The notes beneath the pieces are model-generated. The model was not told the origin of the DNA. It saw only the letters and a program-made list of their open reading frames with translations, and searched no databases. From NCBI GenBank assembly GCA_000002445.1, contig CM000208.1, positions 2,432,001 to 2,496,000 of the forward strand: 64,000 nt of DNA, given 5' to 3'. Below are positions 40,487 through 60,839 of this stretch, one piece after another. Position numbers and translations under genes: made by a program. The stretch is from Trypanosoma brucei (lineage: Eukaryota). Numbering within the stretch: position 1 is the stretch's first letter; each line of letters begins with the position of its first letter.

Positions 40487-40488
<2 letters not shown>

Positions 40489-40522: not shown

Positions 40523-40523
<1 letters not shown>

Positions 40524-41058: not shown

Positions 41059-41085
41059 AATAAAAGCAAGTGTTGCAAGACCACT

Positions 41086-42207: not shown

Positions 42208-42323
42208 ATCGCTAAAACTAACGCGAAAGGGAAAAAAATGTGATTTATCAACCCCTCTGTTATACTAATTTTCTAGATCTTTCGTGCTAACGTTTGAATA
42301 ATGGAGTAAATCACCGAAAACAT

Positions 42324-43532
42324 TTAGTCGTCCTTTCCCCAATTTCCGCCAAATATCTTCCTCCACGCCTTTCTGAACATTCTTCGGAAGAAGCTCCTCC
42401 TCCCCAACCCTCCACACAACCCAATCTCCGTCATCAGAAGGTCTTTGTCGGCATCCTTTACCTGACCTGCCGAGAGCCAATCCTGTTTAGTACGGCTATT
42501 CAGCGCGGAAACGTTTTCAATTGGAAGACTTCCTAGTCCATTCAGTATTTTCATGGCATCCGCCCTCCTCCCAATAGTTTTTTCTGTCCACTCCTCCGTG
42601 AGACTCCTATATATGTCGCCGTACTCACTTACCTGCTCTTCAAACGCCCGGTAAGCATCCATTGCTGCCCTCAGTGTGGGGACGTTTGTTGTTGGATTTT
42701 CCTCCCACATCATATCGTAACTATATGTCTCATTCCTCGTATCTCCTATGTATGCGGTTTCGCCAACTCCATCTTTCTTTACTCCAAAGATTCCATCGCC
42801 CCAAAGCAAGTTAGTCGTGAGGCTCGCGTTTCCCAGGTATCCTCCCCCCGAACTTCCGCGCACCAGCTGACACCCCTGTGACTCCCCTCCCGTGTATCTT
42901 GGGTCGTTATTGCTCAGCTTTAGGTGCCTTCTAATTGCTTCCTCCAGGTTTGCTCTGCCCTCCGCTTGTGAACCCTTTTTCTCTTCAACATCCTCTACAG
43001 AGAGGAATTCTGCAGCATCTACAGCCGTTTTCCCCCCTTGAAAACAGTCGTGAAGCTCCGCCTTAGTTGCTGCTTCACCTCGTGCACCCGCAGCGCAAGA
43101 AAAAAATTCAACCCCGTTTCTGTTATTCGGTTGCTGGAAAACACTAACGAACTCATCCAACCTCCCCGCTGCCAGCCCCGCCGCTGCTGCTAGTGATAAC
43201 CCTTTCTTCCGGACACTCGCGATCATACCGACCATCCTATCCAAACCACCCACCATGTACTTGAGAAAAAATGCCATTTTGTCGCATTCGGGTCCCGTCT
43301 CCTTCTCTTTTACAACCTTCAACTTCGCCAGCTTTACCATTTTTTCCACATCTTCCAACATCGCTTCTGAAACGTCTGTTTTCTTGACAACATACTGGTA
43401 CATTTCCTTCAACGCCTTACTCACCCCACATACGCCCTGCATTGCCTCCAACCTCAGCGCCCCTCTTTCACCAGGGCCGCCGGCACTTGCCACAGCTACG
43501 ACCGCCGCTATTGTGAATACGACCCTTATCAT
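42324..43532 (-). CDS. PAG2: procyclin-associated gene, ESAG6/7-related; third PAG, PAG2 by locus order
   Basis: The listed ORF runs to 43664 but starts on GTG. The ATG at 43532 follows a polypyrimidine tract plus AG and gives the signal peptide 'MIRVVFTIAAVVAVASA'. Shares 'SLAAAAGLAAGRLDEFVSVF' and 'LLWGDGIFGVKKDG' with the other PAGs. Confidence 0.65.
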   Translation of the reverse strand: MIRVVFTIAAVVAVASAGGPGERGALRLEAMQGVCGVSKALKEMYQYVVKKTDVSEAMLEDVEKMVKLAKLKVVKEKETGPECDKMAFFLKYMVGGLDRMVGMIASVRKKGLSLAAAAGLAAGRLDEFVSVFQQPNNRNGVEFFSCAAGARGEAATKAELHDCFQGGKTAVDAAEFLSVEDVEEKKGSQAEGRANLEEAIRRHLKLSNNDPRYTGGESQGCQLVRGSSGGGYLGNASLTTNLLWGDGIFGVKKDGVGETAYIGDTRNETYSYDMMWEENPTTNVPTLRAAMDAYRAFEEQVSEYGDIYRSLTEEWTEKTIGRRADAMKILNGLGSLPIENVSALNSRTKQDWLSAGQVKDADKDLLMTEIGLCGGLGRRSFFRRMFRKAWRKIFGGNWGKDD

Positions 43533-43653
43533 TTTCCCAGAGCCACCTAAAGAAGAAAAAGATAGAGCACATACCTGCATCCTGATGCCCAATACACTTC
43601 CACCCACCCATCCCCCTCCCCCAAAAAAATACACACATATATTAGTAAAGTGC

Positions 43654-44766
43654 TTATACCCCACAATCCTTCAACTCTTCCCCCAGAAGCCTGTCCTCCA
43701 CACGTTCCCCATCCACTTGCGCCACCCAGTCCTCCATGCTCTTTTCTTCTTCGTCATCTTCCCCCTCCGTGTTTTTATCAACAGCAGAATTTGCTTTCCT
43801 CCCAAGTGTCCCGAGATCCTCCACATACAGATTCTCCTGAACGAAACGATCTACTAAATGTTTATGCGACGCGTCGACTTTTCTTTCCAGTTCTGCAAAT
43901 AGTTTATAGTCTTTCACCACCTTTACTAGGGTGGGATTCCCTCCCGTTGGATTTTCCTCCCACACCACTGCGGTGTCATACGTTGTCGCCCGGGTGTTTC
44001 CCTTAAACCCCGTCATCTGGGATCCCGACTTGACGACACCGAGCACTCCGTCACCCCATATGATATTCTCAGAGAGATCGCCATTTCCCATATAGCCACC
44101 GCCCGCCTTCCCAACTGTAAGCTGGCATCCCAAATCCTTGCCAAAGTCGTGCCTTGGGTCACCTCCATCCACAAGCAAGCTATCGTGAAGCACGCTTTCC
44201 AAATTCATTTCGAACGGATTTTCAAAAAGGTTTTCGCCTTCTGTAATTTTGAGAGACTCCCACTCACCGCTGTCTTTGTTCTTGGCGTAGCAGCTGGGTA
44301 GCACTTCTTCAGGGAAATTCACACTTAGACCACCGATGCAAGAGTTATTCGCGTCTCTATGGGCCTGAACGAAAACGGACACCATTTCATCCAATCTTCC
44401 TGCGGCAATGCCCGCTTCTCCCACTAATCTCCTTCCAACGTCCCACAACTCGTCCACTTCCCTGACCATGTTCTGCTCATTGATTCTTACCTGTGTAAGG
44501 AATACTCTTAGTGTTCCACACTTCAGTCCTTTGTTCCATTCTGTCAATAATTTCAGTCGTACGACTTTCTGGAGCAGTTGGACTTCCTCGAGTTTTCTGT
44601 CAGCCTCCATGAGTTTCTGCTCGACGAAACCGTGCACAGCCTTTAGTTTTTTTGAGGTATTACATAACGCTTTTATTGCGGACAATTTCAAAGCTGCCCC
44701 AGCGTCCGCATGATGACAACAACCACTTACTAACGCCACTACTAAAAATGCCACTGTTCTTCGCAT
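43654..44766 (-). CDS. PAG5: procyclin-associated gene, ESAG6/7-related; second PAG, PAG5 by locus order
   Basis: Listed start 44829 is GTG. The ATG at 44766 gives the signal peptide 'MRRTVAFLVVALVSGCC'. Shares 'GEAGIAAGRLDEMVSVFVQA' and 'IIWGDGVLGVVKSG'. Confidence 0.65.
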   Translation of the reverse strand: MRRTVAFLVVALVSGCCHHADAGAALKLSAIKALCNTSKKLKAVHGFVEQKLMEADRKLEEVQLLQKVVRLKLLTEWNKGLKCGTLRVFLTQVRINEQNMVREVDELWDVGRRLVGEAGIAAGRLDEMVSVFVQAHRDANNSCIGGLSVNFPEEVLPSCYAKNKDSGEWESLKITEGENLFENPFEMNLESVLHDSLLVDGGDPRHDFGKDLGCQLTVGKAGGGYMGNGDLSENIIWGDGVLGVVKSGSQMTGFKGNTRATTYDTAVVWEENPTGGNPTLVKVVKDYKLFAELERKVDASHKHLVDRFVQENLYVEDLGTLGRKANSAVDKNTEGEDDEEEKSMEDWVAQVDGERVEDRLLGEELKDCGV

Positions 44767-44847
44767 TTGCTGAAGAAAACAAAAGATGTCTGGCACCTGC
44801 AACCCACTAAGTTTTCCCTTAAACCACACAAACTAAAAAATACGATT

Positions 44848-46065
44848 TTAAAACAACAAAAATAACAACGCGAGGGTCCTCCTGAGAGAGCCAATCCTGC
44901 CAACACCACACATCGCCATCTCCTCCAACAGCTTCTCCTCTTGCACCGTTTCTCTGTTCCCGAGCACGACGAAGGACTTCCCACTATCCTCATCTACCAC
45001 TACTGTGCTTTTATTTCCGTGGGTGCCCGTGTTCACAATAGCTTGCGCGTATTCCCAGTTCCAGTGTGCGCCGGTTTCGTGCGCCAGCTCTTCGATGTGA
45101 GTATACAAGTTCACAAATTTGCGAAGCTCTCGGTAGGCGTTTCTAAGAACGGGGACGTTGTTAACGGGGTCTTCCTCCCAAGTTACATCGTGTATTAGAA
45201 CCTCTGCACGGGTTTTTCCTGTCCCCCCAACGAATCCTCTTCCACTTCGTTTAAGGGAAATAATTCCATCTCCCCAGAGTATTCTTCTGGAGGTGCTGTT
45301 TTCGGAGAGGTAGCCGCCCCCCGGACGGGTGTTTGTTAGGTGGCAGTTTGCGCTGTGGACGTAGCGTTCCAAGGGGTTTCCACCGCCACCAGTGAGCCTA
45401 AGCAGTTCGTTCATACTCTCCCGTGTCATGTTCATTTCCTCCACCCTTTCCATGCGGTGCATATCCCCCAAAGAAATAAATTCATCCTTCTCCGAGTCAC
45501 TTAAATAGCAATTCAACAACTGATTCCGCGTCGCGTGGTGCTCGCTATTTCCTACGCAAAAATCCCCTTTCCCACTGGAATACGCGCGCCGCCACACATT
45601 TATCATTTCATCCAACCTCCCCGCCGCTATCCCTGCTGCCCCTACCGCTGAGTATCCAAGATATCTCAACCTCTTCAATTCTCTCCTCTTCACCCTATTC
45701 ACTTTACTCCCCACACGTTTCAAAAACTTCGCGATCCCCGTGCACGAGGTCCAATTGCTATTTCCCCCTTCATTTCCCCTAACCCTCACAATCTTCAACC
45801 TCACCAACTCCACCATATCCTCAAACTCCCTCACCTTCTCGGTTGCATACTTAGTTTTCGCTTGGACGAAGGCATACACCGATTTCAGCCTCTTCGACGC
45901 ATTACAGAGCGCTTCCGCAGCTCCACTCAAACTCAGTGCGCCACTGTCCGCGGAGGCGCTACCAGTAAGTACAAAAAAGGACACAATCACTAATACCTTC
46001 ATGAGCGTGCGAACCCTATTCGCGATGGCAAAGGTCAAGCGAAAAAGGATAATCAAAGAGACCAT
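44848..46065 (-). CDS. PAG1: procyclin-associated gene, ESAG6/7-related; first PAG downstream of EP2, PAG1 by locus order
   Basis: Listed start 46101 is TTG. In-frame ATGs at 46065 and 46002; the latter gives the signal peptide 'MKVLVIVSFFVLTGSASA'. Shares 'AVGAAGIAAGRLDEMINVW' and 'ILWGDGIISLKRSG'. Confidence 0.65.
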   Translation of the reverse strand: MVSLIILFRLTFAIANRVRTLMKVLVIVSFFVLTGSASADSGALSLSGAAEALCNASKRLKSVYAFVQAKTKYATEKVREFEDMVELVRLKIVRVRGNEGGNSNWTSCTGIAKFLKRVGSKVNRVKRRELKRLRYLGYSAVGAAGIAAGRLDEMINVWRRAYSSGKGDFCVGNSEHHATRNQLLNCYLSDSEKDEFISLGDMHRMERVEEMNMTRESMNELLRLTGGGGNPLERYVHSANCHLTNTRPGGGYLSENSTSRRILWGDGIISLKRSGRGFVGGTGKTRAEVLIHDVTWEEDPVNNVPVLRNAYRELRKFVNLYTHIEELAHETGAHWNWEYAQAIVNTGTHGNKSTVVVDEDSGKSFVVLGNRETVQEEKLLEEMAMCGVGRIGSLRRTLALLFLLF

Positions 46066-47758
46066 TTTCGATGATTGATGAAACAGGAAAGACCGCGGCA
46101 AGTTGTGACGCCCCCACTTGGGGACTGGAAAATCCGCCGGGGATGCGCCTGCCAGATTCAGGCTTCAGCAACGGCAACGGCGTTAGTGTTGGCGGGGAAG
46201 GGAAGGTGCAAGGCGCCTTTTTGCAGCTGGAATTTAAAGCTTAACCGACAGCATGAAATCATCCGTGACACTGTCTTATTTCCCTCCAAAACCATTGGAT
46301 ACGCCGTGGTTGGCACACGGCCCATTGCCATCAATTGCTGAGGTGGGCTCGTGTTGCCGGCGGTGGGATCCAATGCACTATGGCGCATCAGAGAAGGAAG
46401 AGCGACCCCCCTGATACTTAGGGGGGTCAAAACAGGGTTTCCAGGCTACAAACCGTTCTTAACGCTATCCGCGACAACACGTTGGTGGGTAGGAAAGTGT
46501 CGGGTAGGGGCTTAAAAGTGAGATTGACCGATGGCAACTATTCTCGAGATGGCATAAAACCCTAACCGCACCCCGCCGACGCTTAGAAATTAGGTCCAGG
46601 AAAGAAAGTCAAGCCCGACCAAGGACCTCCTTTTCTTCGGTTTTGGCTTTGTCGAAAGGACACGAAATCGATCCACCGCGGGGCGCGCAGTGGACTTGTT
46701 ACTTATTTAACTGACTCCTAAACGAGAAAGCTCCCCTGCGGCGCGCGACGCACATCATCTCAAAGGCGATGTGGGAGAGAAAACACTGCGAGAACATATG
46801 ACCACCGACGAGCCGGTGAATGCCCCAGAAGTATTTCAAAAAATGTCACACTCTCCATTGATTGTCCCAGCATATTTCACAAAGTGGACCAAAACAGAGG
46901 GCAGTGCAGTAAATACGTAAAGTTCATGGAAACAACGCGCTTACCCTCTCCGCAGCCTCTCCTCCCCAACAGATCAAGTGGCAGCAGCTCACTCAACTGA
47001 ATCGCTCCCCTGACGAGAACAGTTAAATAAAGGCAAGGCAAAAGGCAAAACACCGCTCAGGCCTCAATTTTGAACAGTTACGGTGAACTTCCTGAAGGTG
47101 CTTTAAAGTTTCCCCGACATATTAACAAACATGATGATGCACCACCGTAGGCGAAGAAGGAATCATCACCAGGAATGTGCTTCCTTCAACCGCTGCTTCC
47201 CATGTTGCAACTCCACGGTGTCAAACGGAAGCTGAGATGGCGGAAATATCGAGGGACAAATCGCTTGAGTCATCAAAAGTCCATTTGTCTCCCATTTCTA
47301 GCCTGAGGTTTTAGAAGGAACTATTTTCCCAGTACGAAAAAAGGACAAGGCAAAAAGTTCGAAAAAAAAAAAGTTCAGTCACAAATGGAGGAGGTTGCTG
47401 TCAACCATTGCAGGAACAAGACATAGGAGAAGACCGCAAATGCAGTGGATGAATTTTTGACAAAACCATACGAATGGTTTACAGAAGAAACCGTTTGGTA
47501 GAAGCCAAGGAACACATTGACAGGCACACGCAGAAGTCTACAGGGCTGCGTGCTACCGCCGACGGTTCCGAGGCATAAAAAAAAAAATAGAACTCAAAAA
47601 AATAGGTTGAAAAAAAATATTACGTATATGCAAGTGTCCTGTCGCCAAGGGACGTCATAAAGCGGGCGCATCGCGCCAAAGGAAAGGTCAAAGAAATAAC
47701 TGGGGCCACCCTTGTTAAAAAGTTTTGACCCCCCAGAGAATTTTCTGTTTACATGAGC

Positions 47759-48148
47759 TTAGAATGCGGCAACGAGACCAACGGCCGCGATTGCAAACGG
47801 AAGAGCAACAGACTTCAGCGTTGCAGCACCAGGTTCAGGTTCAGGTTCAGGTTCCGGCTCGGGTTCCGGCTCGGGTTCAGGTTCGGGTTCAGGTTCGGGT
47901 TCAGGTTCGGGTTCAGGTTCAGGTTCAGGTTCGGGTTCGGGTTCGGGTTCGGGTTCAGGTTCAGGTTCGGGTTCAGGTTCAGGCTCAACTTCGTCCTGGA
48001 CCTTGGTTCCCTTCTCGCCTTTGCCTTTGCCTCCCTTAGTAAGACCCTTGTCTTCTGGTCCTTCAGCGGCTGCGGCAAATCCCACGCCAGCGAAGAGGTT
48101 CGCGCTGAACAGAAGAATAGCGAGCAGATAAAGGGAACGAGGTGCCAT
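47759..48148 (-). CDS. EP2: EP procyclin (PARP), isoform without an N-glycosylation sequon; EP2-type
   Basis: '[54 protein letters not shown](EP)~26[23 protein letters not shown]'. Has the signal peptide, the (Glu-Pro)n rod and a hydrophobic GPI-addition tail. No GPEET motif. Confidence 0.9.
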
Positions 48149-49077: not shown

Positions 49078-49503
49078 TTAGAATGCGGCAACGAGAGCAG
49101 CAGCCGCGACTGCAAACGGAAGTGCAACAGATTTCAGCGTTGCAGCACCAGGTTCAGGTTCAGGTTCGGGTTCAGGTTCCGGCTCGGGTTCCGGCTCGGG
49201 TTCAGGTTCAGGTTCCGGCTCGGGTTCAGGTTCGGGTTCAGGTTCAGGTTCAGGTTCAGGTTCAGGTTCAGGTTCAGGTTCGGGTTCGGGTTCGGGTTCG
49301 GGTTCAGGTTCAGGTTCAGGGTCGGGGTCAGTGCCATTGGTATCGTCGGCGCCGACCTTGGTTCCCTTCTCGCCTTTGCCTTTGCCTCCCTTAGTAAGAC
49401 CCTTGTCTTCTGGTCCTTCAGCGGCTGCGGCAAATCCCACGCCAGCGAAGAGGTTCGCGCTGAACAGAAGAATAGCGAGCAGATAAAGGGAACGAGGTGC
49501 CAT
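49078..49503 (-). CDS. EP1: EP procyclin (PARP), isoform with an N-glycosylation sequon; EP1-type and first gene of the unit
   Basis: Same N- and C-termini as EP2, but '[14 protein letters not shown]' (NGT sequon) precedes about 28 EP dipeptides. The 47 nt upstream of the ATG are identical to those upstream of EP2. Confidence 0.9.
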
Positions 49504-49559
49504 TGTGAATTTTACTTCTTGGTGTAATTGAAGTCTTCAAGTTGAAAAAAATGGGGAAA

Positions 49560-49900
49560 AGGAAAAAAAACTCGAAGGCGCGTGCAGCGATCACGAGAAC
49601 ATGTTAAACTCAGTACTCACCCGATAACCCCTATTTTCAATGCACGCCCACCCAGAGACACGGAACAGCACAAAACAACCATATCACTTCCACAAAATGG
49701 ACATTTTACACAAAATGCACTATTGACTAGTACTCAACTATACTAATAAGAGATACCTATCGGACACGATATACTGTGAAAAGGATATTAAGCTCACTAT
49801 GCATCTGAAAACGCTTTCACCTCACAACCTACTGACACACACCTTTCCGCTTAACCCCAATGACAACAAAGGCTGACTGCACCTCACATCTGAGGAAGAG
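49560..49900 (-). promoter_or_regulatory. procyclin (EP/PAG) RNA polymerase I promoter region, approximate
   Basis: By established knowledge the procyclin promoter lies within about 250 bp upstream of the transcription start, which is about 100-150 nt upstream of the EP1 trans-splice site. Here the polyY tract plus AG sits at about 49545-49600 on the minus strand. The interval upstream is ORF-free and AT-rich, and EP2 has no duplicated equivalent beyond 47 nt. Confidence 0.45.
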
Positions 49901-50925
49901 GTCCAGGGGAGCGGTGCCTGTTCGCGGTGCGGAATTGTTGTTTCCCCCTCTTCCTCATCCGCCCCCTCGGTTCCGTGGGCCCTGACTCCCGAAGAGTTTT
50001 CGAGAATTGTTAATAGAGAAGGGATTCGCTCACCATATTCGGAACAATACACTTGTCAGAAGTTTGGCAATCCAGTTTGGGGGCACTGAAAAGCACTTTG
50101 TGGTGAATCAGCGGCATTTAGGCCGGCAGCGGTATGTTTTGCTACGAAACACCGGGCATCGAAGAAGTCAGAAAGCCCTTCAGCACGACGGCTGATGGAG
50201 AACGCTGGTAAAGTTTTCCTTTCATGCGCCCTCAACGAGAACTAGCGGAAATTAAAACCAATTTCGGCGGATAAAGGCCCCGCAACTCGGCACATCGGCG
50301 GCGTTGGTGGGCCGACTCACCGATAAAACGAGCCGACACCTGCCACCACACACACTGGTATATGAAGGGGGCACCTCCGGTGGGCACGCAACTCCCAATG
50401 AGCTTTTGCCGTGGTGGGAACCGTGGCGCGCCTGATTGGTTGAAATTTCGTCGGCACAATGACCTGCCAGGATGCGTTGGGCTTGGTTAAGGATGTTGGC
50501 GCTTTGGGGAAACGAAGACCCACGCTCAGCGGAGCCTGAACATGGGACCACATCTGCGTGGTTTATTGGGCTGCCAAGGCCTCCGAAAGGCGAGCCCGAT
50601 CCTGGAAACGGGTGGAGCAAGTTCCTAAGAGGGTTGCTCTCCCGCGTTTCACGGCCCACTGCCTACGCGCGCAGGGTAAGTAAATTGGCTTAGACATAGC
50701 CCCCGAAAGGGGAAAAAGAAGGTCAAGGATGGCAACCGGGTTCTGTCCGTGACATTGCGAGGGACAATTGGTTGCCATGACCGGAAGGCGCCCGCCACCC
50801 ATGGGTTTCTACCCACCCCCAAATGAGGCGAGGGTTTTGCAGGCTAGGAATATCTATGATTGAATCAAATATTGCCATGCCTCCCCCCGATGTGGGACAC
50901 GCAAATGCGTTACGCTCCCCTCCCC

Positions 50926-50941
50926 CCCCCCCCCCGAAGGG
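50926..50941. repeat. poly(C)16 homopolymer inside the GC-rich island
   Basis: 'cccccccccccccccc' read directly. Confidence 0.9.
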
Positions 50942-51206
50942 ACCGAACGCACAGCCTCCTCCACGAGGTGGAACAAAGGAAACGGTAGGACAGCAGCGGC
51001 GCACGACTACCACACAACCACTGAGCACACCGATGAGAAGCGATACGCTTGGAACATGGGGCGCACCGAAGGGAAAAAGCACTGAAGAAAAGGGCGGAGC
51101 GGGTGAATCGAAGGGCTCCCCGAATGTAAACACGCGCGCACTGAAGAACACACACCGCGACAGTTGCTCAAAGTCAGCGCGACCCGGGTGTTGCATTGCA
51201 CCTAGG

Positions 51207-51370
51207 CGCACACGCAACTCCACTGCCTCCTGTAGCAAGGCCGCGTAAGTTTGGGGGCCTCCAAGGGCAAGTCAAAACCCGTCGAGGCGGAGCCTCGGTT
51301 AGATAACGGTAACGGAACACGCTACAGCGGGTCCGGCGTCGCTACAGGAGGCAGTGGAGTTGCGTGTGCG
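51207..51370. repeat. perfect 30-bp inverted repeat with a 104-nt spacer (potential hairpin)
   Basis: 51207-51236 'cgcacacgcaactccactgcctcctgtagc' is the exact reverse complement of 51341-51370 'gctacaggaggcagtggagttgcgtgtgcg'. It is also visible as the shared 'RTRNSTASCS' in the opposite-strand ORFs 50823..51248(+) and 51299..51565(-). Confidence 0.85.
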
Positions 51371-54065
51371 GAAACCACAGTGCAGGGTGCGCAGTGGATA
51401 ATTTGTGGAAAGGCTACCATCCGCGTCCGACCACGTTGTGACGGCCGAATGGTTTCCATCACGACATGGCTGCCCACGTATCACGACGAAACCGATAAGA
51501 GATTCGCAGGGTCCAATGGAAGGAGTGAAAAAAACGGGGTGAAGATGAGGAAAGAAAGGCAACACTTACGAGCATTCCGAAATTAAAGCCCGTGATACGG
51601 AGGAGCTGTGTCAAATTGCGAATGACGGAGACGATGTTGGGATACACCTCACAGCATTAAGCTGGGGTCGCCGTTCTCACTGGCATCCCTGGATGCGATA
51701 ACAAGGAGTTGGGCCATATCGGCGAAACGCTACCAGCAATAGCCGAGCTTTAAGCAGTAAGCGAGGAAAGCTGGTGCAACCGGGAACCCACCACTGGGTG
51801 TGCGACCGGGAAGGGAAGGAAATCCGCAGCCAGTTGGAGTTGGTATTCCAATGGTCGTCGGGCTACTTGGCCACTACCACCCGTACCTCAACCGCCTCAC
51901 ACACCCAACAGCATGCACTTACTCATGCACCAAGACGCATGAATAAATGCACTGGGAAGGTAAATAAATTCAGCTTTAAAAAAAAAAGATGAGCCAGGGA
52001 GATTACGTAAAAGGGGCTCATCCGCACCTCCCGCACACCGCAAAATAATAATAATAATAACGCTATGTTAAAAAGCACAAGCAACGGAAAAGCCTCTGCT
52101 TACATTTGTTAATGCACAGGCGCAGCGCAGCGGAGAGAACCCTGCAATTCTCCATGCGCAAAATCACTGTTCAACCGAAAGGGACGACACCCCGAGTGGC
52201 GCAAGTACGGCGGCCAGGGCATGTTTACAAACATGCGTTGAGTATGGCGACTCGACAATCCCCCAAAAATTATGAAAATGGGGGGCAGCAAGACCCGCAC
52301 CCACAACCCACACGGTTTTAGAGCAAACACGCCTACAGGCATCAAAAAAAGTAAAAAAAACTGGCACAGTCATAAAAGGTCCCAGCCGACTTTCCAGCAC
52401 GTTCTCCACCTTCACCTTTGAACGTTAGAAACATTACAACGGTGATCTGTGTGACGCACCTTTGTTAAATTACCCTTAAAAGATAGACAAAAAGCGAAGG
52501 ATCATTAGCGACGTCGCAATACAACCGAGTTTCCGCAACAACCGCAACGACACCCCATTTCCACACAATGCAAAACCGAAGGCAGCACTTCCTCACCACC
52601 CTTCCGCCTCCGCACTACTTGTCATGACCCCCCGCGTTGTCGCCCCCGTAGTGATACCGCTTCCGTGATTTCAAAGGACATAAACACTTACAAAACTGGT
52701 ACAAATCCCTGCACCATCAACATGATAGTGGTTGGCATACTTTCCAACCGCTGTGGTCTGAACTCGCACTACCTTCCCAACCTCTACAATCACACAAAGG
52801 GACAAAAAAATCAGAGGTTCTACTCCAACCTACGGCGTATTCAGTACCACAGCCCAGCATCCGAAGGGACAAAACACGCACCAACAACTCGGGCACGATT
52901 TACACCGTTCCCTCGCACCGACAAGCCACACAAACACCAAATTCATTACGAAATATAACCATCCCCTCACTAATACAAGGCGAAACAATAAGCATAATCA
53001 AACAGCTGACAGACAGAAATCCACCGCAGGGCTCAATGTAAGCTAACTTCGCCCTCCCCCTCCCTCACCCTATGGCCTCAGTGTTGCCCTGTAAAACCTT
53101 CTCTGACACTAGTCAAGCAGAGGTAAAAACTAACCTAACCCTAACACTCTCACACAATGAAAGGAGAATCCGTGGGGAATTTGGGAAAAGGCAAAGCACA
53201 CACGGTAAGCAGTCGGCACAACCCCTGGCGCAAAGAAGGCGCAACTGCACGCAAACAAGGCATTCGATTCAGTACCTTCTGTAGGATATGTGGGTTGCCA
53301 TACCGTAGGCAGTTACCAGTAACAGAAACGTATGGGGAAGGAAAGAATCAAAATATAGCTAAAGCTCCTCAACGCATATATATATACATATATTACCGTT
53401 TCACAGCCAATTCATACATCACACTTAACGCTCCCTCTAAACAACGACCCCAAACAATAACATCCCCAGGTACCTCACCAACAACAACAACAACACAATT
53501 CTTAATTAGCAAATATGGCTTCAATGGAGGCAAAGGAAGAAAGGAAGGACGTACACTCCAACTGTGAGATCCCGCTCGAATCAGCTGTAGCGACGAGAGT
53601 AGTTAACGGAAGGTCGACCCAGGGACCCACATCGCATCCCTACGCTGCCGTTAACATACCCTCAAGTGAAAATTAAAAAAAAAAATGGACCAAAAGTTGA
53701 TTTCAGCAAAAGTGCGTCCGAAAGAAAGGGCACGAAACAACAAACAGAAAATAATCAGCAGCAAAATAAATACATCACATTACGTGGCTATCACTGGACA
53801 CAACCAATAGTTGGTCAGCACGTGCCAGTAGTCGATCGACAAAATACATAATAATCAGCACAGTTAGCACAGGAGAGATAATATCAGCCCTTTCACGCAA
53901 CGCATTATCCACACTCACAACACGAAACAACTACGTTGAGGACAAACGAATGGCGCCACCCAATGGCATACTCCTGCGTACATTGATCTCCACAGTGCAG
54001 CACTCATACGTAAAGACCTTCCAATCACAGTTTAAAAAAGAGGAAAATACCGCTTCTCAAATATT

Positions 54066-57000
54066 CTACACCTTGCGACCCGAGTGATTAACGAAGGTTG
54101 CGCGGTTAGTCGTAACATACATCGAAGGGTCCACATGACGGACCTGTACTGCAGGTTTCCCAATGGGACGAGGAGGACATTGTACCTCAGGCCTGATAAA
54201 CCTGTTGCGGTATTCGCTGCTTACACCTTGCATAGAAATGCTTGACTGTTTAACAGTCGGAGCAGCCTTTGGCATATAAGGTTTGCTGGCACCGTGTGCC
54301 TTGAAATCTCTATGCGCGGTACTCACGTACATATCAGCATCTACATGACAAGGGCAGGAATAACCAACATTAGGGGCCTTTTTCCACTTTGACACACGTA
54401 CTCCGTTACCAGTTGGTTGATCGCCCACAGCCGCAGCAGCACACTCAGTAGTAGCTGCAACAGCCGCAGCAGCACCTCCATTACTCTCCCCACTTGCGAC
54501 ACACTTCATATCAGTGGAGACATCAACCTTCTTTGATGTCACACCACCATCACTTTTACCTTTCACGACCTTCTTAACAACAATAGCATCAGCTACAGAT
54601 GAAGCAGTAAAGCTATGCCTCTTAGATATAACAGATTCATCACCAAAGGAAGACTCCCTACACGAACTCTTATAACAAGAAGAATCATAGCGACAATACG
54701 AATCCTTTGCAGTTGTCCTAAAGTGGCCATCATCACCACCGCGACTTGACACTTTCACAACTTCCTCACGGAGCACATCACGCTTATATGCGGCAGGGTC
54801 AATTGGTGCATACGATTCTGCAGTGGTTGAGCGGAAGTGACTGGGATCAACATGACGAGGGCCCGTTGCCTCCTCTTCCTCACGGAGCACATCACGCTTA
54901 TATGCGGCAGGGTCAATTGGCGCATACGATTCTGCAGTGGTTGAGCGGAAGTGACTGGGATCAACATGACGAGGGCCCGTTGCCTCCTCTTCCTCACGGA
55001 GCACATCACGCTTATATGCGGCAGGGTCAATTGGCGCATACGATTCTGCAGTGGTTGAGCGGAAGTGACTGGGATCAACATGACGAGGGCCCGTTACCTC
55101 CTCTTCCTCACGGAGCACATCACGCTTATATGCGGCAGGGTCAATTGGCGCATACGATTCTGCAGTGGTTGAGCGGAAGTGACTGGGATCAACATGACGA
55201 GGGCCCGTTACCTCCTCTTCCTCACGGAGCACATCACGCTTATATGCGGCAGGGTCAATTGGTGCATACGATTCTGCAGTGGTTGAGCGGAAGTGACTGG
55301 GATCAACATGACGAGGGCCCGTTACCTCCTCTTCCTCACGGAGCACATCACGCTTATATGCGGCAGGGTCAATTGGTGCATGCGATTCTGCAGTGGTTGA
55401 GCGGAAGTGACTGGGGTCAACATGACGAGGGCCCGTTACCTCCTCTTCCTCACGGAGCACATCACGCTTATATGCGGCAGGGTCAATTGGCGCATACGAT
55501 TCTGCAGTGGTTGAGCGGAAGTGACTGGGGTCAACATGACGAGGGCCCGTTACCTCCTCTTCCTCACGGAGCACATCACGCTTATATGCGGCAGGGTCAA
55601 TTGGCGCATACGATTCTGCAGTGGTTGAGCGGAAGTGACTGGGGTCAACATGACGAGGGCCCGTTACCTCCTCTTCCTCACGGAGCACATCACGCTTATA
55701 TGCGGCAGGGTCAATTGGTGCATACGATTCTGCAGTGGTTGAGCGGAAGTGACTGGGGTCAACATGACGAGGGCCCGTTACCTCCTCTTCCTCACGGAGC
55801 ACATCACGCTTATATGCGGCAGGGTCAATTGGCGCATACGATTCTGCAGTGGTTGAGCGGAAGTGACTGGGGTCAACATGACGAGGGCCCGTTACCTCCT
55901 CTTCCTCACGGAGCACATCACGCTTATATGCGGCAGGGTCAATTGGCGCATACGATTCTGCAGTGGTTGAGCGGAAGTGACTGGGGTCAACATGACGAGG
56001 GCCCGTTACCTCCTCTTCCTCACGGAGCACATCACGCTTATATGCGGCAGGGTCAATTGGCGCATACGATTCTGCAGTGGTTGAGCGGAAGTGACTGGGA
56101 TCAACATGACGAGGGCCCGTTGCCTCCTCTTCCTCACGGAGCACATCACGCTTATATGCGGCAGGGTCAATTGGCGCATACGATTCTGCAGTGGTTGAGC
56201 GGAAGTGACTGGGATCAACATGACGAGGGCCCGTTACCTCCTCTTCCTCACGGAGCACATCACGCTTATATGCGGCAGGGTCAATTGGCGCATACGATTC
56301 TGCAGTGGTTGAGCGGAAGTGACTGGGGTCAACATGACGAGGGCCCGTTACCTCCTCTTCCTCACGGAGCACATCACGCTTATATGCGGCAGGGTCAATT
56401 GGCGCATACGATTCTGCAGTGGTTGAGCGGAAGTGACTGGGATCAACATGACGAGGGCCCGTTACCTCCTCTTCCTCACGGAGCACATCACGCTTATATG
56501 CGGCAGGGTCAATTGGCGCATACGATTCTGCAGTGGTTGAGCGGAAGTGACTGGGATCAACATGACGAGGGCCCGTTACCTCCTCTTCCTCACGGAGCAC
56601 ATCACGCTTATATGCGGCAGGGTCAATTGGCGCATACGATTCTGCAGTGGTTGAGCGGAAGTGACTGGGATCAACATGACGAGGGCCCGTTACCTCCTCT
56701 TCCTCACGGAGCACATCACGCTTATATGCGGCAGGGTCAATTGGTGCATACGATTCTGCAGTGGTTGAGCGGAAGTGACTGGGGTCAACATGACGAGGGC
56801 CCGTTACCTCCTCTTCCTCACGGAGCACATCACGCTTATATGCGGCAGGGTCAATTGGTGCATACGATTCTGCAGTGGTTGAGCGGAAGTGACTGGGGTC
56901 AACATGACGAGGGCCCGTTACCTCCTCTTCCTCACGGAGCACATCACGCTTATATGCGGCAGGGTCAATTGGCGCATACGATTCTGCAGTGGTTGAGCGG

Positions 57001-60000
57001 AAGTGACTGGGGTCAACATGACGAGGGCCCGTTACCTCCTCTTCCTCACGGAGCACATCACGCTTATATGCGGCAGGGTCAATTGGCGCATACGATTCTG
57101 CAGTGGTTGAGCGGAAGTGACTGGGGTCAACATGACGAGGGCCCGTTACCTCCTCTTCCTCACGGAGCACATCACGCTTATATGCGGCAGGGTCAATTGG
57201 TGCATACGATTCTGCAGTGGTTGAGCGGAAGTGACTGGGGTCAACATGACGAGGGCCCGTTACCTCCTCTTCCTCACGGAGCACATCACGCTTATATGCG
57301 GCAGGGTCAATTGGCGCATACGATTCTGCAGTGGTTGAGCGGAAGTGACTGGGATCAACATGACGAGGGCCCGTTACCTCCTCTTCCTCACGGAGCACAT
57401 CACGCTTATATGCGGCAGGGTCAATTGGCGCATACGATTCTGCAGTGGTTGAGCGGAAGTGACTGGGATCAACATGACGAGGGCCCGTTGCCTCCTCTTC
57501 CTCACGGAGCACATCACGCTTATATGCGGCAGGGTCAATTGGCGCATACGATTCTGCAGTGGTTGAGCGGAAGTGACTGGGATCAACATGACGAGGGCCC
57601 GTTACCTCCTCTTCCTCACGGAGCACATCACGCTTATATGCGGCAGGGTCAATTGGCGCATACGATTCTGCAGTGGTTGAGCGGAAGTGACTGGGGTCAA
57701 CATGACGAGGGCCCGTTACCTCCTCTTCCTCACGGAGCACATCACGCTTATATGCGGCAGGGTCAATTGGTGCATACGATTCTGCAGTGGTTGAGCGGAA
57801 GTGACTGGGATCAACATGACGAGGGCCCGTTACCTCCTCTTCCTCACGGAGCACATCACGCTTATATGCGGCAGGGTCAATTGGTGCATACGATTCTGCA
57901 GTGGTTGAGCGGAAGTGACTGGGATCAACATGACGAGGGCCCGTTACCTCCTCTTCCTCACGGAGCACATCACGCTTATATGCGGCAGGGTCAATTGGTG
58001 CATACGATTCTGCAGTGGTTGAGCGGAAGTGACTGGGGTCAACATGACGAGGGCCCGTTACCTCCTCTTCCTCACGGAGCACATCACGCTTATATGCGGC
58101 AGGGTCAATTGGCGCATACGATTCTGCAGTGGTTGAGCGGAAGTGACTGGGATCAACATGACGAGGGCCCGTTACCTCCTCTTCCTCACGGAGCACATCA
58201 CGCTTATATGCGGCAGGGTCAATTGGTGCATACGATTCTGCAGTGGTTGAGCGGAAGTGACTGGGGTCAACATGACGAGGGCCCGTTACCTCCTCTTCCT
58301 CACGGAGCACATCACGCTTATATGCGGCAGGGTCAATTGGCGCATACGATTCTGCAGTGGTTGAGCGGAAGTGACTGGGGTCAACATGACGAGGGCCCGT
58401 TACCTCCTCTTCCTCACGGAGCACATCACGCTTATATGCGGCAGGGTCAATTGGCGCATACGATTCTGCAGTGGTTGAGCGGAAGTGACTGGGATCAACA
58501 TGACGAGGGCCCGTTACCTCCTCTTCCTCACGGAGCACATCACGCTTATATGCGGCAGGGTCAATTGGCGCATACGATTCTGCAGTGGTTGAGCGGAAGT
58601 GACTGGGATCAACATGACGAGGGCCCGTTACCTCCTCTTCCTCACGGAGCACATCACGCTTATATGCGGCAGGGTCAATTGGCGCATACGATTCTGCAGT
58701 GGTTGAGCGGAAGTGACTGGGGTCAACATGACGAGGGCCCGTTACCTCCTCTTCCTCACGGAGCACATCACGCTTATATGCGGCAGGGTCAATTGGCGCA
58801 TACGATTCTGCAGTGGTTGAGCGGAAGTGACTGGGGTCAACATGACGAGGGCCCGTTACCTCCTCTTCCTCACGGAGCACATCACGCTTATATGCGGCAG
58901 GGTCAATTGGCGCATACGATTCTGCAGTGGTTGAGCGGAAGTGACTGGGGTCAACATGACGAGGGCCCGTTACCTCCTCTTCCTCACGGAGCACATCACG
59001 CTTATATGCGGCAGGGTCAATTGGCGCATACGATTCTGCAGTGGTTGAGCGGAAGTGACTGGGATCAACATGACGAGGGCCCGTTACCTCCTCTTCCTCA
59101 CGGAGCACATCACGCTTATATGCGGCAGGGTCAATTGGCGCATACGATTCTGCAGTGGTTGAGCGGAAGTGACTGGGGTCAACATGACGAGGGCCCGTTA
59201 CCTCCTCTTCCTCACGGAGCACATCACGCTTATATGCGGCAGGGTCAATTGGCGCATACGATTCTGCAGTGGTTGAGCGGAAGTGACTGGGATCAACATG
59301 ACGAGGGCCCGTTACCTCCTCTTCCTCACGGAGCACATCACGCTTATATGCGGCAGGGTCAATTGGTGCATACGATTCTGCAGTGGTTGAGCGGAAGTGA
59401 CTGGGGTCAACATGACGAGGGCCCGTTGCCTCCTCTTCCTCACGGAGCACATCACGCTTATATGCGGCAGGGTCAATTGGCGCATACGATTCTGCAGTGG
59501 TTGAGCGGAAGTGACTGGGATCAACATGACGAGGGCCCGTTGCCTCCTCTTCCTCACGGAGCACATCACGCTTATATGCGGCAGGGTCAATTGGTGCATA
59601 CGATTCTGCAGTGGTTGAGCGGAAGTGACTGGGATCAACATGACGAGGGCCCGTTACCTCCTCTTCCTCACGGAGCACATCACGCTTATATGCGGCAGGG
59701 TCAATTGGTGCATACGATTCTGCAGTGGTTGAGCGGAAGTGACTGGGGTCAACATGACGAGGGCCCGTTACCTCCTCTTCCTCACGGAGCACATCACGCT
59801 TATATGCGGCAGGGTCAATTGGTGCATACGATTCTGCAGTGGTTGAGCGGAAGTGACTGGGGTCAACATGACGAGGGCCCGTTACCTCCTCTTCCTTACG
59901 GAGCACATCACGCTTATATGCGGCAGGGTCAATTGGTGCATACGATTCTGCAGTGGTTGAGCGGAAGTGACTGGGGTCAACATGACGAGGGCCCGTTACC

Positions 60001-60839
60001 TCCTCTTCCTCACGGAGCACATCACGCTTATATGCGGCAGGGTCAATTGGTGCATACGATTCTGCAGTGGTTGAGCGGAAGTGACTGGGATCAACATGAC
60101 GAGGGCCCGTTACCTCCTCTTCCTCACGGAGCACATCACGCTTATATGCGGCAGGGTCAATTGGTGCATACGATTCTGCAGTGGTTGAGCGGAAGTGACT
60201 GGGGTCAACATGACGAGGGCCCGTTACCTCCTCTTCCTCACGGAGCACATCACGCTTATATGCGGCAGGGTCAATTGGTGCATACGATTCTGCAGTGGTT
60301 GAGCGGAAGTGACTGGGGTCAACATGACGAGGGCCCGTTACCTCCTCTTCCTCACGGAGCACATCACGCTTATATGCGGCAGGGTCAATTGGTGCATACG
60401 ATTCTGCAGTGGTTGAGCGGAAGTGACTGGGATCAACATGACGAGGGCCCGTTACCTCCTCTTCCTCACGGAGCATATCACGCTTATATGCGGCAGGGTC
60501 AATTGGTGCATACGATTCTGCAGTGGTTGAGCGGAAGTGACTGGGATCAACATGACGAGGGCCCGTTACCTCCTCTTCCTCACGGAGCATATCACGCTTA
60601 TATGCGGCAGGGTCAATTGGTGCATACGATTCTTTCATTGTGGAAAGTATTTCTTTATAATTTTGTTTATTTGCTTTTTGTTGTTTCATATAAAGGTTTT
60701 CAGTATTGTGCGGCAAACTTTTTTTTTTGTTTTTTATGTCGATGCAATCGTAGACCTCTGCTCTTTCTTTATCTCTTTGTGGATATGGTTGCGGATCATT
60801 CCACTTATAGTCTGCTTCTAATCCCTTTGTGCCAGGCAT
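54066..60839 (-). CDS. MARP: microtubule-associated repetitive protein (MARP-type). Has N- and C-terminal unique domains flanking about 51 tandem 38-aa repeats.
   Basis: 2,257-aa ATG-initiated ORF. Repeat unit 'SYAPIDPAAYKRDVLREEEEVTGPRHVDPSHFRSTTAE' (38 aa, 114 bp) reiterated almost identically. Ordinary unique N- and C-terminal sequences. The 38-aa periodicity is the hallmark of trypanosome MARP/MAP. Confidence 0.85.
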   Translation of the reverse strand: MPGTKGLEADYKWNDPQPYPQRDKERAEVYDCIDIKNKKKSLPHNTENLYMKQQKANKQNYKEILSTMKESYAPIDPAAYKRDMLREEEEVTGPRHVDPSHFRSTTAESYAPIDPAAYKRDMLREEEEVTGPRHVDPSHFRSTTAESYAPIDPAAYKRDVLREEEEVTGPRHVDPSHFRSTTAESYAPIDPAAYKRDVLREEEEVTGPRHVDPSHFRSTTAESYAPIDPAAYKRDVLREEEEVTGPRHVDPSHFRSTTAESYAPIDPAAYKRDVLREEEEVTGPRHVDPSHFRSTTAESYAPIDPAAYKRDVLRKEEEVTGPRHVDPSHFRSTTAESYAPIDPAAYKRDVLREEEEVTGPRHVDPSHFRSTTAESYAPIDPAAYKRDVLREEEEVTGPRHVDPSHFRSTTAESYAPIDPAAYKRDVLREEEEATGPRHVDPSHFRSTTAESYAPIDPAAYKRDVLREEEEATGPRHVDPSHFRSTTAESYAPIDPAAYKRDVLREEEEVTGPRHVDPSHFRSTTAESYAPIDPAAYKRDVLREEEEVTGPRHVDPSHFRSTTAESYAPIDPAAYKRDVLREEEEVTGPRHVDPSHFRSTTAESYAPIDPAAYKRDVLREEEEVTGPRHVDPSHFRSTTAESYAPIDPAAYKRDVLREEEEVTGPRHVDPSHFRSTTAESYAPIDPAAYKRDVLREEEEVTGPRHVDPSHFRSTTAESYAPIDPAAYKRDVLREEEEVTGPRHVDPSHFRSTTAESYAPIDPAAYKRDVLREEEEVTGPRHVDPSHFRSTTAESYAPIDPAAYKRDVLREEEEVTGPRHVDPSHFRSTTAESYAPIDPAAYKRDVLREEEEVTGPRHVDPSHFRSTTAESYAPIDPAAYKRDVLREEEEVTGPRHVDPSHFRSTTAESYAPIDPAAYKRDVLREEEEVTGPRHVDPSHFRSTTAESYAPIDPAAYKRDVLREEEEVTGPRHVDPSHFRSTTAESYAPIDPAAYKRDVLREEEEVTGPRHVDPSHFRSTTAESYAPIDPAAYKRDVLREEEEVTGPRHVDPSHFRSTTAESYAPIDPAAYKRDVLREEEEVTGPRHVDPSHFRSTTAESYAPIDPAAYKRDVLREEEEATGPRHVDPSHFRSTTAESYAPIDPAAYKRDVLREEEEVTGPRHVDPSHFRSTTAESYAPIDPAAYKRDVLREEEEVTGPRHVDPSHFRSTTAESYAPIDPAAYKRDVLREEEEVTGPRHVDPSHFRSTTAESYAPIDPAAYKRDVLREEEEVTGPRHVDPSHFRSTTAESYAPIDPAAYKRDVLREEEEVTGPRHVDPSHFRSTTAESYAPIDPAAYKRDVLREEEEVTGPRHVDPSHFRSTTAESYAPIDPAAYKRDVLREEEEVTGPRHVDPSHFRSTTAESYAPIDPAAYKRDVLREEEEVTGPRHVDPSHFRSTTAESYAPIDPAAYKRDVLREEEEVTGPRHVDPSHFRSTTAESYAPIDPAAYKRDVLREEEEVTGPRHVDPSHFRSTTAESYAPIDPAAYKRDVLREEEEVTGPRHVDPSHFRSTTAESYAPIDPAAYKRDVLREEEEATGPRHVDPSHFRSTTAESYAPIDPAAYKRDVLREEEEVTGPRHVDPSHFRSTTAESYAPIDPAAYKRDVLREEEEVTGPRHVDPSHFRSTTAESYAPIDPAAYKRDVLREEEEVTGPRHVDPSHFRSTTAESYAPIDPAAYKRDVLREEEEVTGPRHVDPSHFRSTTAESYAPIDPAAYKRDVLREEEEVTGPRHVDPSHFRSTTAESYAPIDPAAYKRDVLREEEEVTGPRHVDPSHFRSTTAESHAPIDPAAYKRDVLREEEEVTGPRHVDPSHFRSTTAESYAPIDPAAYKRDVLREEEEVTGPRHVDPSHFRSTTAESYAPIDPAAYKRDVLREEEEVTGPRHVDPSHFRSTTAESYAPIDPAAYKRDVLREEEEATGPRHVDPSHFRSTTAESYAPIDPAAYKRDVLREEEEATGPRHVDPSHFRSTTAESYAPIDPAAYKRDVLREEVVKVSSRGGDDGHFRTTAKDSYCRYDSSCYKSSCRESSFGDESVISKRHSFTASSVADAIVVKKVVKGKSDGGVTSKKVDVSTDMKCVASGESNGGAAAAVAATTECAAAAVGDQPTGNGVRVSKWKKAPNVGYSCPCHVDADMYVSTAHRDFKAHGASKPYMPKAAPTVKQSSISMQGVSSEYRNRFIRPEVQCPPRPIGKPAVQVRHVDPSMYVTTNRATFVNHSGRKV
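54765..60632. repeat. 114-bp tandem repeat array, about 51.5 units, at least 97% identical
   Basis: Unit '...cctcttcctcacggagcacatcacgcttatatgcggcagggtcaattgg[c/t]gcatacgattctgcagtggttgagcggaagtgactggg[a/g]tcaacatgacgagggcccgtt[a/g]cct...' read continuously. Most variants are synonymous; V/A and M/V substitutions are rare. Confidence 0.95.

What the first reader, a model, noticed from the sequence alone, without database searches (positions are those of the whole stretch)
51207..51370. Perfect 30-bp inverted repeat (104-nt loop) in the ORF-free spacer between MARP and the procyclin promoter
A 30/30 perfect palindromic arm pair is far beyond chance in 64 kb. It sits in the most GC-rich stretch of the window. 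It could fold as a long hairpin in DNA or in a read-through transcript, and hairpins of this kind can feed RNAi. Its position between the end of the Pol II unit (MARP 3' region) and the Pol I promoter also suggests a boundary or termination role. I cannot assign it to a known element.
Basis: seen in the sequence. Interest (0 to 1): 0.6.

Follow-up and report, generated by a model that had tools for sequence, protein, structure and literature searches.

The report
Lone short hairpin repeat upstream of procyclin
The perfect 30-bp inverted repeat is real and cannot be a chance match. The evidence points to a one-off local inverted duplication in unique non-coding DNA between the MARP gene and the Trypanosoma brucei EP/PAG1 procyclin locus, with nothing tying it to RNAi or to transcription termination.

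Summary
Arms 51207-51236 and 51341-51370 are 30/30 complementary around a 104-nt loop, and extend to 35/37. Shuffled windows give arms of at most 15 nt. Both strands are predicted to fold into a very stable hairpin.

The window is T. brucei TREU927 chromosome 10, EP/PAG1 procyclin locus, with the unit on the minus strand. The repeat lies about 1.7 kb upstream of the EP1 start codon, in a unique island of about 58% GC.

The island has no Pfam, Rfam or tRNA match. It shows no similarity to about 130 kb of other T. brucei DNA. Its only ORF is an orphan that is frameshifted in T. b. gambiense.

The repeat is present in the diverged EP/PAG2-type haplotype of T. b. gambiense and T. equiperdum, with no compensatory changes. 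It is absent upstream of the paralogous chromosome 6 procyclin locus, whose homology begins only at window 50177.

Published work places Pol II termination in this spacer. It lists no siRNA locus here, and the known siRNA inverted repeats have arms of 422 bp to 10 kb.

Best reading: a replication template-switch inverted duplication that is probably neutral. A role as a hairpin-RNA source or pause element is not excluded and remains untested. Interest is low.

The parts
51207..51236 (.). Left arm, perfect 30-nt core (extends inward to 51243 at 35/37)
51341..51370 (.). Right arm, perfect 30-nt core (extends inward from 51334 at 35/37)
51237..51340 (.). 104-nt spacer or loop. It is not palindromic overall and carries 6 of the 12 haplotype differences seen in the 281-nt alignment.
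51283..51297 (.). Small central palindrome CGAGGC-GGA-GCCTCG, centred 1.5 nt from the centre of the large repeat (51288.5). It forms the apical mini-hairpin in all predicted folds.
51320..51347 (+). 8-nt direct repeat CGCTACAG at 51320-51327 and 51340-51347, the second copy at the inner edge of the right arm. It may be microhomology left by the duplication event.
   Evidence: read directly from the sequence
50200..52000 (.). Unique GC-rich non-coding island that holds the repeat (core 50500-51499 is 58.5% GC). No Pfam, Rfam or tRNA match, no similarity to the rest of the window or to the chromosome 6 locus, and no plasmid match.
50723..51196 (-). Annotated orphan ORF Tb10.6k15.0010 (157 aa), whose start codon lies 11 nt downstream of the repeat on the minus strand. 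It has orthologues only in the T. brucei group, is frameshifted in T. b. gambiense at the C/G run 50922-50935, and has no homologue among 1.8 billion representatives. Judged non-coding.
49504..50177 (-). Promoter-proximal block shared with the chromosome 6 GPEET/PAG3 procyclin locus (94.6-95.3% identity). Homology ends at 50177, about 1 kb short of the repeat.
54066..60839 (-). MARP, the last gene of the upstream Pol II unit (context)
   Evidence: PMC2731899
49078..49503 (-). EP1 procyclin, the first gene of the Pol I unit (context)
   Evidence: PMC2731899

Best explanation
The feature is a single-copy, locus-specific short inverted duplication of about 37 nt, copied in reverse orientation about 100 nt away. 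It lies in unique non-coding DNA of the MARP-to-EP1 spacer.

The most likely origin (inferred) is a replication template-switch event. The nascent strand briefly copies the opposite or folded-back strand and then returns. One such event creates a perfect stem with sharp edges.

The duplication arose before the two old chromosome 10 haplotypes (EP/PAG1-type and EP/PAG2-type) diverged. It has since drifted like its surroundings.

Its only certain consequence (shown by prediction) is structural. Single-stranded DNA, or any read-through RNA of either strand, would fold into a 30-37-bp hairpin. With a 104-nt spacer it should not readily extrude as a cruciform, so it is expected to be genetically stable (background knowledge from yeast inverted-repeat studies). 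I consider it most probably a neutral by-product with no dedicated function.
For: - The edges are sharp. The left half aligned against the reverse complement of the right half matches only in the 30-37-nt arms. There is no decayed larger palindrome.
- The copies are close together and there are only two of them. No further copy occurs in the window or in four other T. brucei-group loci totalling about 67 kb, apart from the orthologous site.
- There are no transposon or retroelement hallmarks. Six-frame Pfam scans of 49600-54100 are empty. The flanks CCTAGG and GAAACC show no target-site duplication.
- The island is non-coding and orphan. Stop-codon counts match shuffles. The only ORF has no homologue beyond its T. 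brucei-group orthologues in 5.8 billion and 1.84 billion-protein searches, and it is frameshifted in gambiense.
- There is no RNA family match, even at E<=5.
- Nothing shows selection. Between haplotypes the arms carry 1 difference in 60 nt. The extended arms carry 4 in 74 nt, the loop 6 in 104 nt and the surrounding 50800-51599 about 4.6%. No pair changed on both sides.
- The repeat sits in the most divergent part of the spacer, not in a conserved block.
- It is absent from the paralogous chromosome 6 procyclin locus.
- Template switching is documented to create perfect hairpins of this size in one step (PMC8794818, PMC10710096).
Against: - No sequence lacking the repeat was available, so the template-switch origin is inferred from anatomy and not reconstructed.
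- The 28-nt core shared by both haplotypes (56 arm positions) has zero differences against a local background of about 4.6%. That gives P of roughly 0.08, a weak hint of constraint or of arm homogenisation.
- Both one-sided changes in the extended stem keep a standard pair (G-U) in RNA of the minus strand, the strand Pol II would transcribe. The chance of this is about 0.25.
- The repeat lies in a spacer where Pol II termination is functionally important.
Confidence: 0.6

Rival explanations
1. Hairpin-RNA (hpRNA-like) source of endogenous siRNAs. Pol II reading through from MARP transcribes the repeat. The 30-37-bp perfect stem is then cut by the nuclear Dicer DCL2 into roughly one 23-26-nt duplex, which is loaded into AGO1.
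For: The predicted RNA hairpin is very stable on both strands. T. brucei does make siRNAs from inverted repeats and at termination regions, and these increase when H3.V is lost (PMC3447711, PMC4721609). The spacer receives Pol II that must terminate there.
Against: The known siRNA-producing inverted repeats have arms of 422 bp to 10 kb, more than ten times longer. The published 'miscellaneous' siRNA loci include none on chromosome 10. The chromosome 10 convergent-unit window most likely to cover this locus, CTU41, appears to stop about 9 kb short of the repeat; the coordinate transfer is approximate. The arm sequence matches nothing else in the window, so no target is evident. AGO1 loss did not change PAG mRNA levels, and procyclin expression was reported unaltered (PMC2731899; PMC4721609).
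Confidence: 0.12
2. Boundary element. The hairpin, in nascent RNA or in DNA, slows or dislodges Pol II arriving from MARP. This would contribute to termination upstream of the Pol I procyclin promoter, much as a promoter-proximal terminator protects rDNA promoters.
For: Termination of Pol II in this spacer is real and matters for procyclin silencing in bloodstream forms (PMC11229358). The repeat lies 2.7 kb downstream of the MARP stop codon and about 1.7 kb upstream of the EP1 start codon. The structure is strongest on the minus-strand transcript (z -11.2).
Against: The paralogous chromosome 6 procyclin locus follows a same-strand gene but lacks the island and any comparable repeat. The repeat lies outside the block conserved between procyclin loci. 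Trypanosome Pol II termination is known to depend on base J, H3.V/H4.V and the PNUTS-PP1 complex, and the papers read report no hairpin signals. Conservation is no greater than background.
Confidence: 0.1
3. Structured non-coding RNA gene, or a 5'-leader structure of a transcript carrying the adjacent ORF Tb10.6k15.0010.
For: A polypyrimidine tract (51559-51541) with a downstream AG at about 51470 precedes the repeat on the minus strand. The ORF's ATG follows 11 nt after the repeat.
Against: There is no Rfam hit, even at E<=5. The ORF is an orphan, is frameshifted in gambiense, and about 9 of its roughly 15 nucleotide differences change the protein. Stop-codon density is as in shuffles. There is no covariation.
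Confidence: 0.05
4. Relic of a mobile element: a miniature inverted-repeat element with 30-bp terminal repeats, or a fragment of a retroposon.
For: A 164-bp unit bounded by perfect 30-bp inverted termini has the outline of a miniature element. Retroposons often flank Pol I units in T. brucei (background knowledge).
Against: There is no target-site duplication. No second copy occurs in about 130 kb of T. brucei-group DNA. No reverse-transcriptase or endonuclease remnant appears in six frames. No paralogous annotated ORF exists in the protein databases. No DNA transposons are known in T. brucei (background knowledge).
Confidence: 0.03

Closest known systems
Hairpins created by replication template-switch mutations (Monttinen and Loytynoja 2022, PMC8794818; de novo miRNA hairpins, PMC10710096)
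   Same: A reverse-complement copy of a nearby stretch of tens of nucleotides, perfect pairing created at once, sharp edges, no pre-existing palindrome needed, and usually lineage-specific and initially without function.
   Different: Here the event itself could not be reconstructed, because no ancestor or outgroup lacks the copy. The spacing of about 100 nt and the 30-37-nt arms are somewhat larger than a typical miRNA-type stem-loop.
T. brucei long inverted-repeat siRNA loci IR1-IR7 (Tschudi et al. 2012, PMC3447711)
   Same: Near-perfect inverted repeats in the same genome that can fold back when transcribed.
   Different: Those arms are 422 bp to 10 kb and produce hundreds to hundreds of thousands of AGO1-bound reads. 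This repeat has 30-37-nt arms and is not in the published lists.
Promoter-proximal (T0-type) terminators upstream of Pol I rDNA promoters in yeast and vertebrates (background knowledge)
   Same: Positioned upstream of a Pol I promoter, where incoming transcription must be stopped.
   Different: T0 elements are short protein-binding sites about 200 bp from the start site and are conserved among repeat units. This repeat is about 1.5 kb away, is not shared by the other procyclin locus, and no binding factor is known.
Miniature inverted-repeat transposable elements
   Same: A short unit bounded by terminal inverted repeats.
   Different: There is no target-site duplication and no additional copies were found. 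No DNA transposon family is known in this organism.

Membership tests
Template-switch-generated inverted duplication | Reverse-complement copy of a sequence located within a short distance on the same molecule | tested here: met
   Arms 30/30 (35/37), 90-104 nt apart
Template-switch-generated inverted duplication | Sharp boundaries, with no similarity between flanks beyond the copied segment | tested here: met
   Left half against the reverse complement of the right half matches only at 51207-51236/51341-51370. The global alignment outside the arms is near random.
Template-switch-generated inverted duplication | Ancestral or outgroup sequence lacking the copy, explained by a four-point switch model | not testable with these tools
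   Both available haplotypes carry the repeat: TREU927 and the gambiense/equiperdum type. No more distant alignable sequence could be fetched.
T. brucei inverted-repeat siRNA loci | Long near-identical arms giving extended dsRNA (422 bp-10 kb in the seven known loci) | tested here: not met
   The arms are 30-37 nt, against Table 3 of PMC3447711
T. brucei inverted-repeat siRNA loci | AGO1-bound, Dicer-dependent 22-25-nt reads (Tschudi 2012) mapping to the repeat | not testable with these tools
   No read data were accessible. The published tables list no such locus on chromosome 10 outside the convergent units and IR6.
Miniature inverted-repeat element / DNA transposon | Terminal inverted repeats | tested here: met
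   30-bp perfect termini of a 164-bp unit
Miniature inverted-repeat element / DNA transposon | Target-site duplication directly flanking the termini | tested here: not met
   The flanks are ...CACCTAGG | arm and arm | GAAACCAC..., with no direct repeat
Miniature inverted-repeat element / DNA transposon | Multiple dispersed copies | tested here: inconclusive
   No other copy in the 64-kb window or in L001, L003, L004. The whole genome was not searchable.
Retroposon-derived sequence (ingi/RIME/DIRE/SLACS) | Remnants of reverse transcriptase or endonuclease coding sequence | tested here: not met
   Six-frame Pfam scan of 49600-54100 at E<=1 gave only one sub-threshold chance hit
Retroposon-derived sequence (ingi/RIME/DIRE/SLACS) | Similarity to dispersed copies or to annotated ORFs of such elements | tested here: not met
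   The longest island ORF hits only its own orthologue cluster in the 5.8-billion-protein and 1.84-billion-representative searches
Pol I promoter-associated or promoter-proximal terminator element of procyclin loci | Shared by the paralogous procyclin loci | tested here: not met
   Homology with the chromosome 6 locus starts at window 50177. The island and repeat are absent there, and there is no analogous inverted repeat within 9.3 kb upstream.
Pol I promoter-associated or promoter-proximal terminator element of procyclin loci | Demonstrable termination or insulation activity | not testable with these tools
   This needs nascent-RNA or Pol II profiles and deletion mutants. The literature shows only that termination occurs somewhere in the spacer.
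Curated RNA families (Rfam 15) | Covariance-model match | tested here: not met
   0 hits at gathering score in the window and 0 hits at E<=5 in 49500-54100. No tRNA.

The most novel reading that the evidence does not exclude
The hairpin is a working part of the Pol II to Pol I boundary. It would form in nascent read-through RNA from MARP. It would then either stall Pol II or be diced by nuclear DCL2 into a single siRNA species that reinforces local termination or silencing upstream of the procyclin promoter. It would be a young, haplotype-shared element born by template switching and co-opted at one of the procyclin loci.
Probability: 0.07. Interest if true: 0.6.

Novelty: new member of a known kind. 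Interest (0 to 1): 0.18.

Why it matters
If it is only a template-switch by-product, it matters little. It would be a clean example of how a perfect 30-bp stem can arise in one step in trypanosome non-coding DNA. It would also caution against reading function into position.

It would matter more if the hairpin took part in stopping Pol II ahead of the Pol I procyclin promoter. How trypanosomes define such boundaries at the DNA sequence level is unresolved. So far only chromatin marks (base J, H3.V, H4.V) and the PNUTS-PP1 complex are implicated.

The comparative result is useful in itself. The duplicated procyclin unit shared with chromosome 6 begins at window 50177, and everything upstream of that point is specific to chromosome 10.

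Tried and rejected
- Exact-protein look-ups of EP1, EP2, PAG1 and the orphan ORF to fetch other strains found nothing on record. The PAG4 look-up gave a T. equiperdum OVI contig that stops short of the spacer.
- Pfam six-frame scans, Rfam at gathering score and at E<=5, and a tRNA scan were all empty.
- A decayed-gene reading of the island was rejected. Stop-codon counts per frame (8-18 in 467 codons) are as in dinucleotide shuffles, with P=0.60 for the minimum. The longest ORF has no remote homologue.
- A larger degenerate palindrome was rejected.
- Vector or plasmid origin was rejected: no blastn match of the island in 72,556 plasmids, and the repeat is present in three independent assemblies.
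- The covariation test was uninformative, with only two distinct haplotypes.
- An older run-on paper on the PARP units could not be opened.
- Text searches for Tb927.10.10270 (my guess at the newer ID) and for Tb10.6k15.0010 found no paper.
- The bacterial promoter/terminator scan and the bacterial, viral and metagenome DNA collections were not used, because they do not apply to a trypanosome nuclear locus.

Full report
**What the window is.** ORF listing shows a 2257-aa protein of 38-residue repeats on the minus strand (60839..54066), which is MARP. Two EP-repeat procyclins follow (EP1 49503..49078, EP2 48148..47759), then four PAG-type genes down to 41086. These converge on a plus-strand gene array that ends near 39400. 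PAG1 is 100% identical to the T. b. brucei TREU927 protein. A hypothetical ORF in the spacer is identical to TREU927 Tb10.6k15.0010. The window is therefore the EP/PAG1 procyclin locus of T. brucei chromosome 10, laid out as in the published maps (PMC2731899).

**The observation.** The arms 51207-51236 and 51341-51370 are perfect reverse complements, 30/30, separated by 104 nt. Pairing continues inward to 35/37.

- Chance: in 40 dinucleotide-preserving shuffles of the 64 kb, the longest exact inverted repeat with a loop of 500 nt or less was 11-15 nt.
- Uniqueness: the arm sequence has no other match in the window at up to three mismatches.
- Comparison: every other inverted repeat of 18 nt or more in the window is low-complexity or a short palindrome.
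- Folding: both strands are predicted to fold into a long hairpin. As RNA the values are -110.8 kcal/mol (z -8.0) for the plus strand and -116.7 kcal/mol (z -11.2) for the minus strand. As DNA the z-score is -10.6.
- GC content: the repeat sits in the GC maximum of the window, with 50500-51499 at 58.5%.

One qualifier applies: the spacer is not strictly free of annotated ORFs.

**Anatomy.** The repeat has sharp edges. Aligning the left half against the reverse complement of the right half gives only the arms. The 104-nt interior and the outer flanks are not palindromic. Two small details can be read directly. A 6-bp/3-nt mini-palindrome (51283-51297) lies 1.5 nt from the centre of symmetry. 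An 8-nt direct repeat CGCTACAG occurs at 51320 and at 51340, at the inner edge of the right arm. The flanks (CCTAGG | ... | GAAACC) show no target-site duplication.

**What surrounds it.** The island from about 50200 to 52000 has no recognisable content.

- Six-frame translations of 49600-54100 give no Pfam domain.
- Rfam gives nothing at gathering score for the whole window, and nothing at E<=5 for the spacer. There are no tRNAs.
- Sensitive blastn and tblastn of the island against the rest of the window and three other T. brucei-group loci find only the repeat pairing with itself.
- Stop-codon counts in all six frames match shuffles.
- The longest ORF (minus strand, 171 codons from the first alternative start, 157 from the ATG at 51196) is annotated in TREU927 as Tb10.6k15.0010. 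In the 5.8-billion-protein search and in the exhaustive 1.84-billion-representative HMMER search it hits only its own orthologue cluster.
- That cluster has three members: 157 aa in TREU927, 155 aa in T. equiperdum, and 111 aa in T. b. gambiense. The gambiense version is labelled 'hypothetical protein, unlikely' and is frameshifted at the C/G run 50922-50935.
- A plasmid search was empty.

The island is unique, non-coding sequence. It is not a retroelement or gene relic as far as these tests reach.

**Comparison with other haplotypes.** The T. b. gambiense DAL972 chromosome 10 locus (L002) is collinear with the window from MARP to EP1 at 97.4% identity. It carries the repeat with one mismatch at the second position of one arm. 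T. equiperdum IVM-t1 chromosome 10 (L005) carries the same variant and is identical to gambiense over the 281 nt examined. Both of those assemblies have the EP/PAG2-type gene order. The repeat therefore predates the split of the two old chromosome 10 haplotypes described in the literature.

Differences between the two haplotypes:

| Region | Differences | Positions |
|---|---|---|
| Core arms | 1 | 60 |
| 37-nt extended arms | 4 | 74 |
| Loop | 6 | 104 |
| 50800-51599 overall | 37 (about 4.6%) | 800 |

The last region is the most divergent part of the spacer. No pair changed on both sides. Two one-sided changes remain G-U-compatible on the minus-strand RNA, and one change breaks a pair. The 56 positions of the core shared by both haplotypes have no difference. 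By my own Poisson estimate from the counts, this has a chance probability of roughly 0.08. The comparison is inconclusive. It neither demonstrates constraint nor excludes it.

**Comparison with the paralogous Pol I locus.** The chromosome 6 GPEET/PAG3 locus of T. b. gambiense (L003) and the corresponding T. equiperdum locus (L004) align with the window from 50177 downstream through the promoter and the procyclin genes, at 92-95% identity. They do not align upstream of 50177. The 9.3 kb upstream of the chromosome 6 procyclin gene contains a same-strand HpHbR gene. It has no GC island of this strength and no comparable inverted repeat. The repeat lies about 1 kb outside the unit that the procyclin loci share.

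**Literature.**

- Termination: Pol II coming from the MARP unit does terminate in this spacer. Depletion of PP1-1 causes Pol II read-through that transcribes the normally silent EP/PAG1 unit in bloodstream forms (PMC11229358). H3.V and base J lie near the locus and affect it (PMC4721609). Among the papers read, termination is attributed to chromatin marks and the PNUTS-PP1 complex, not to hairpins.
- RNAi: the genome-wide AGO1-bound small-RNA study found seven inverted-repeat siRNA loci with arms of 422 bp to 10 kb. The chromosome 10 example lies at 467-478 kb. Its 15 'miscellaneous' loci include none on chromosome 10.
- Coordinates: the convergent-unit window CTU41 (2,504,000-2,518,000) is probably the EP/PAG1 strand-switch region. 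Transferring coordinates through the T. equiperdum record places the repeat about 9 kb beyond its upper end. This transfer is approximate.
- AGO1: its loss did not change PAG mRNA levels (PMC2731899), and a later paper reports that procyclin expression was also unaltered (PMC4721609).

**Interpretation.** The anatomy fits a replication template-switch event. The features are two copies only, close together, sharp edges, no mobile-element hallmarks, and a unique non-coding host sequence. Such events are documented to create perfect stems of this size in one step (PMC8794818, PMC10710096). This origin is inferred, not shown, because no sequence lacking the repeat was available.

The structural potential is shown only by prediction. 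A 30-bp repeat with a 104-nt spacer is expected to be genetically stable, which agrees with its persistence in both haplotypes. That stability argument rests on background knowledge from yeast inverted-repeat work and was not tested here.

I put about 0.6 on 'neutral by-product with no dedicated function'. I put about 0.12 on a minor hairpin-RNA or siRNA source and about 0.10 on a contribution to Pol II pausing or termination. Small remainders go to an unrecognised RNA or leader structure and to a mobile-element relic.

**Verdict.** This is a real, non-random, correctly located feature. The hairpin prediction holds. The RNAi and boundary ideas are untested, and the available comparative and published evidence disfavours them. 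It is a new instance of a known kind of sequence event and is of low interest unless small-RNA or nascent-transcription data show otherwise.

Noticed in passing
window 50177 (and L003 9327, L004 9330): Homology between the chromosome 10 EP/PAG1 locus and the chromosome 6 GPEET/PAG3 procyclin locus starts abruptly at window 50177, 674 nt upstream of the EP1 ATG, and runs downstream at 92-95% identity. This marks the upstream edge of the duplicated procyclin unit. The GC-rich island begins right there.
   Followed up: partly
window 50800-51599 versus 51600-53199: Divergence between the TREU927 haplotype and the gambiense/equiperdum haplotype is uneven across the spacer. It is about 4.6% in 50800-51599, which includes the repeat, and about 1.4% in 51600-53199. 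Most changes near the repeat are transitions.
   Followed up: partly
window 50723-51196 (-) and 50922-50935: The annotated orphan ORF Tb10.6k15.0010 (157 aa) differs in length between assemblies (157, 155 and 111 aa) because of a variable run of 14 C (G on the coding strand). It has no homologue outside the T. brucei group and looks like an annotation artefact.
   Followed up: yes
L002 and L005 versus window 41000-46100: The T. b. gambiense DAL972 and T. equiperdum IVM-t1 assemblies carry the EP/PAG2-type arrangement (two EP genes, one 428-aa PAG, PAG4). The window carries the EP/PAG1-type arrangement with four PAG genes. The two assemblies share an identical haplotype over the 281 nt around the repeat.
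   Followed up: partly
window 54746-60859 (+): A 2037-codon open frame runs antisense through the MARP repeats. It is most likely a by-product of the 114-nt repeat unit lacking stops in that frame and not a gene.
   Followed up: no
window 40488-40527 and 10074-10113: (TA)n microsatellite palindromes. The first lies in the convergent strand-switch region between the procyclin unit and the plus-strand array.
   Followed up: no
window 41000-46000: There is a strong negative GC skew (-0.27 to -0.40) across the PAG genes on the plus strand, flipping near 40000 and 46000. This agrees with the strand of the procyclin unit and marks its extent.
   Followed up: no
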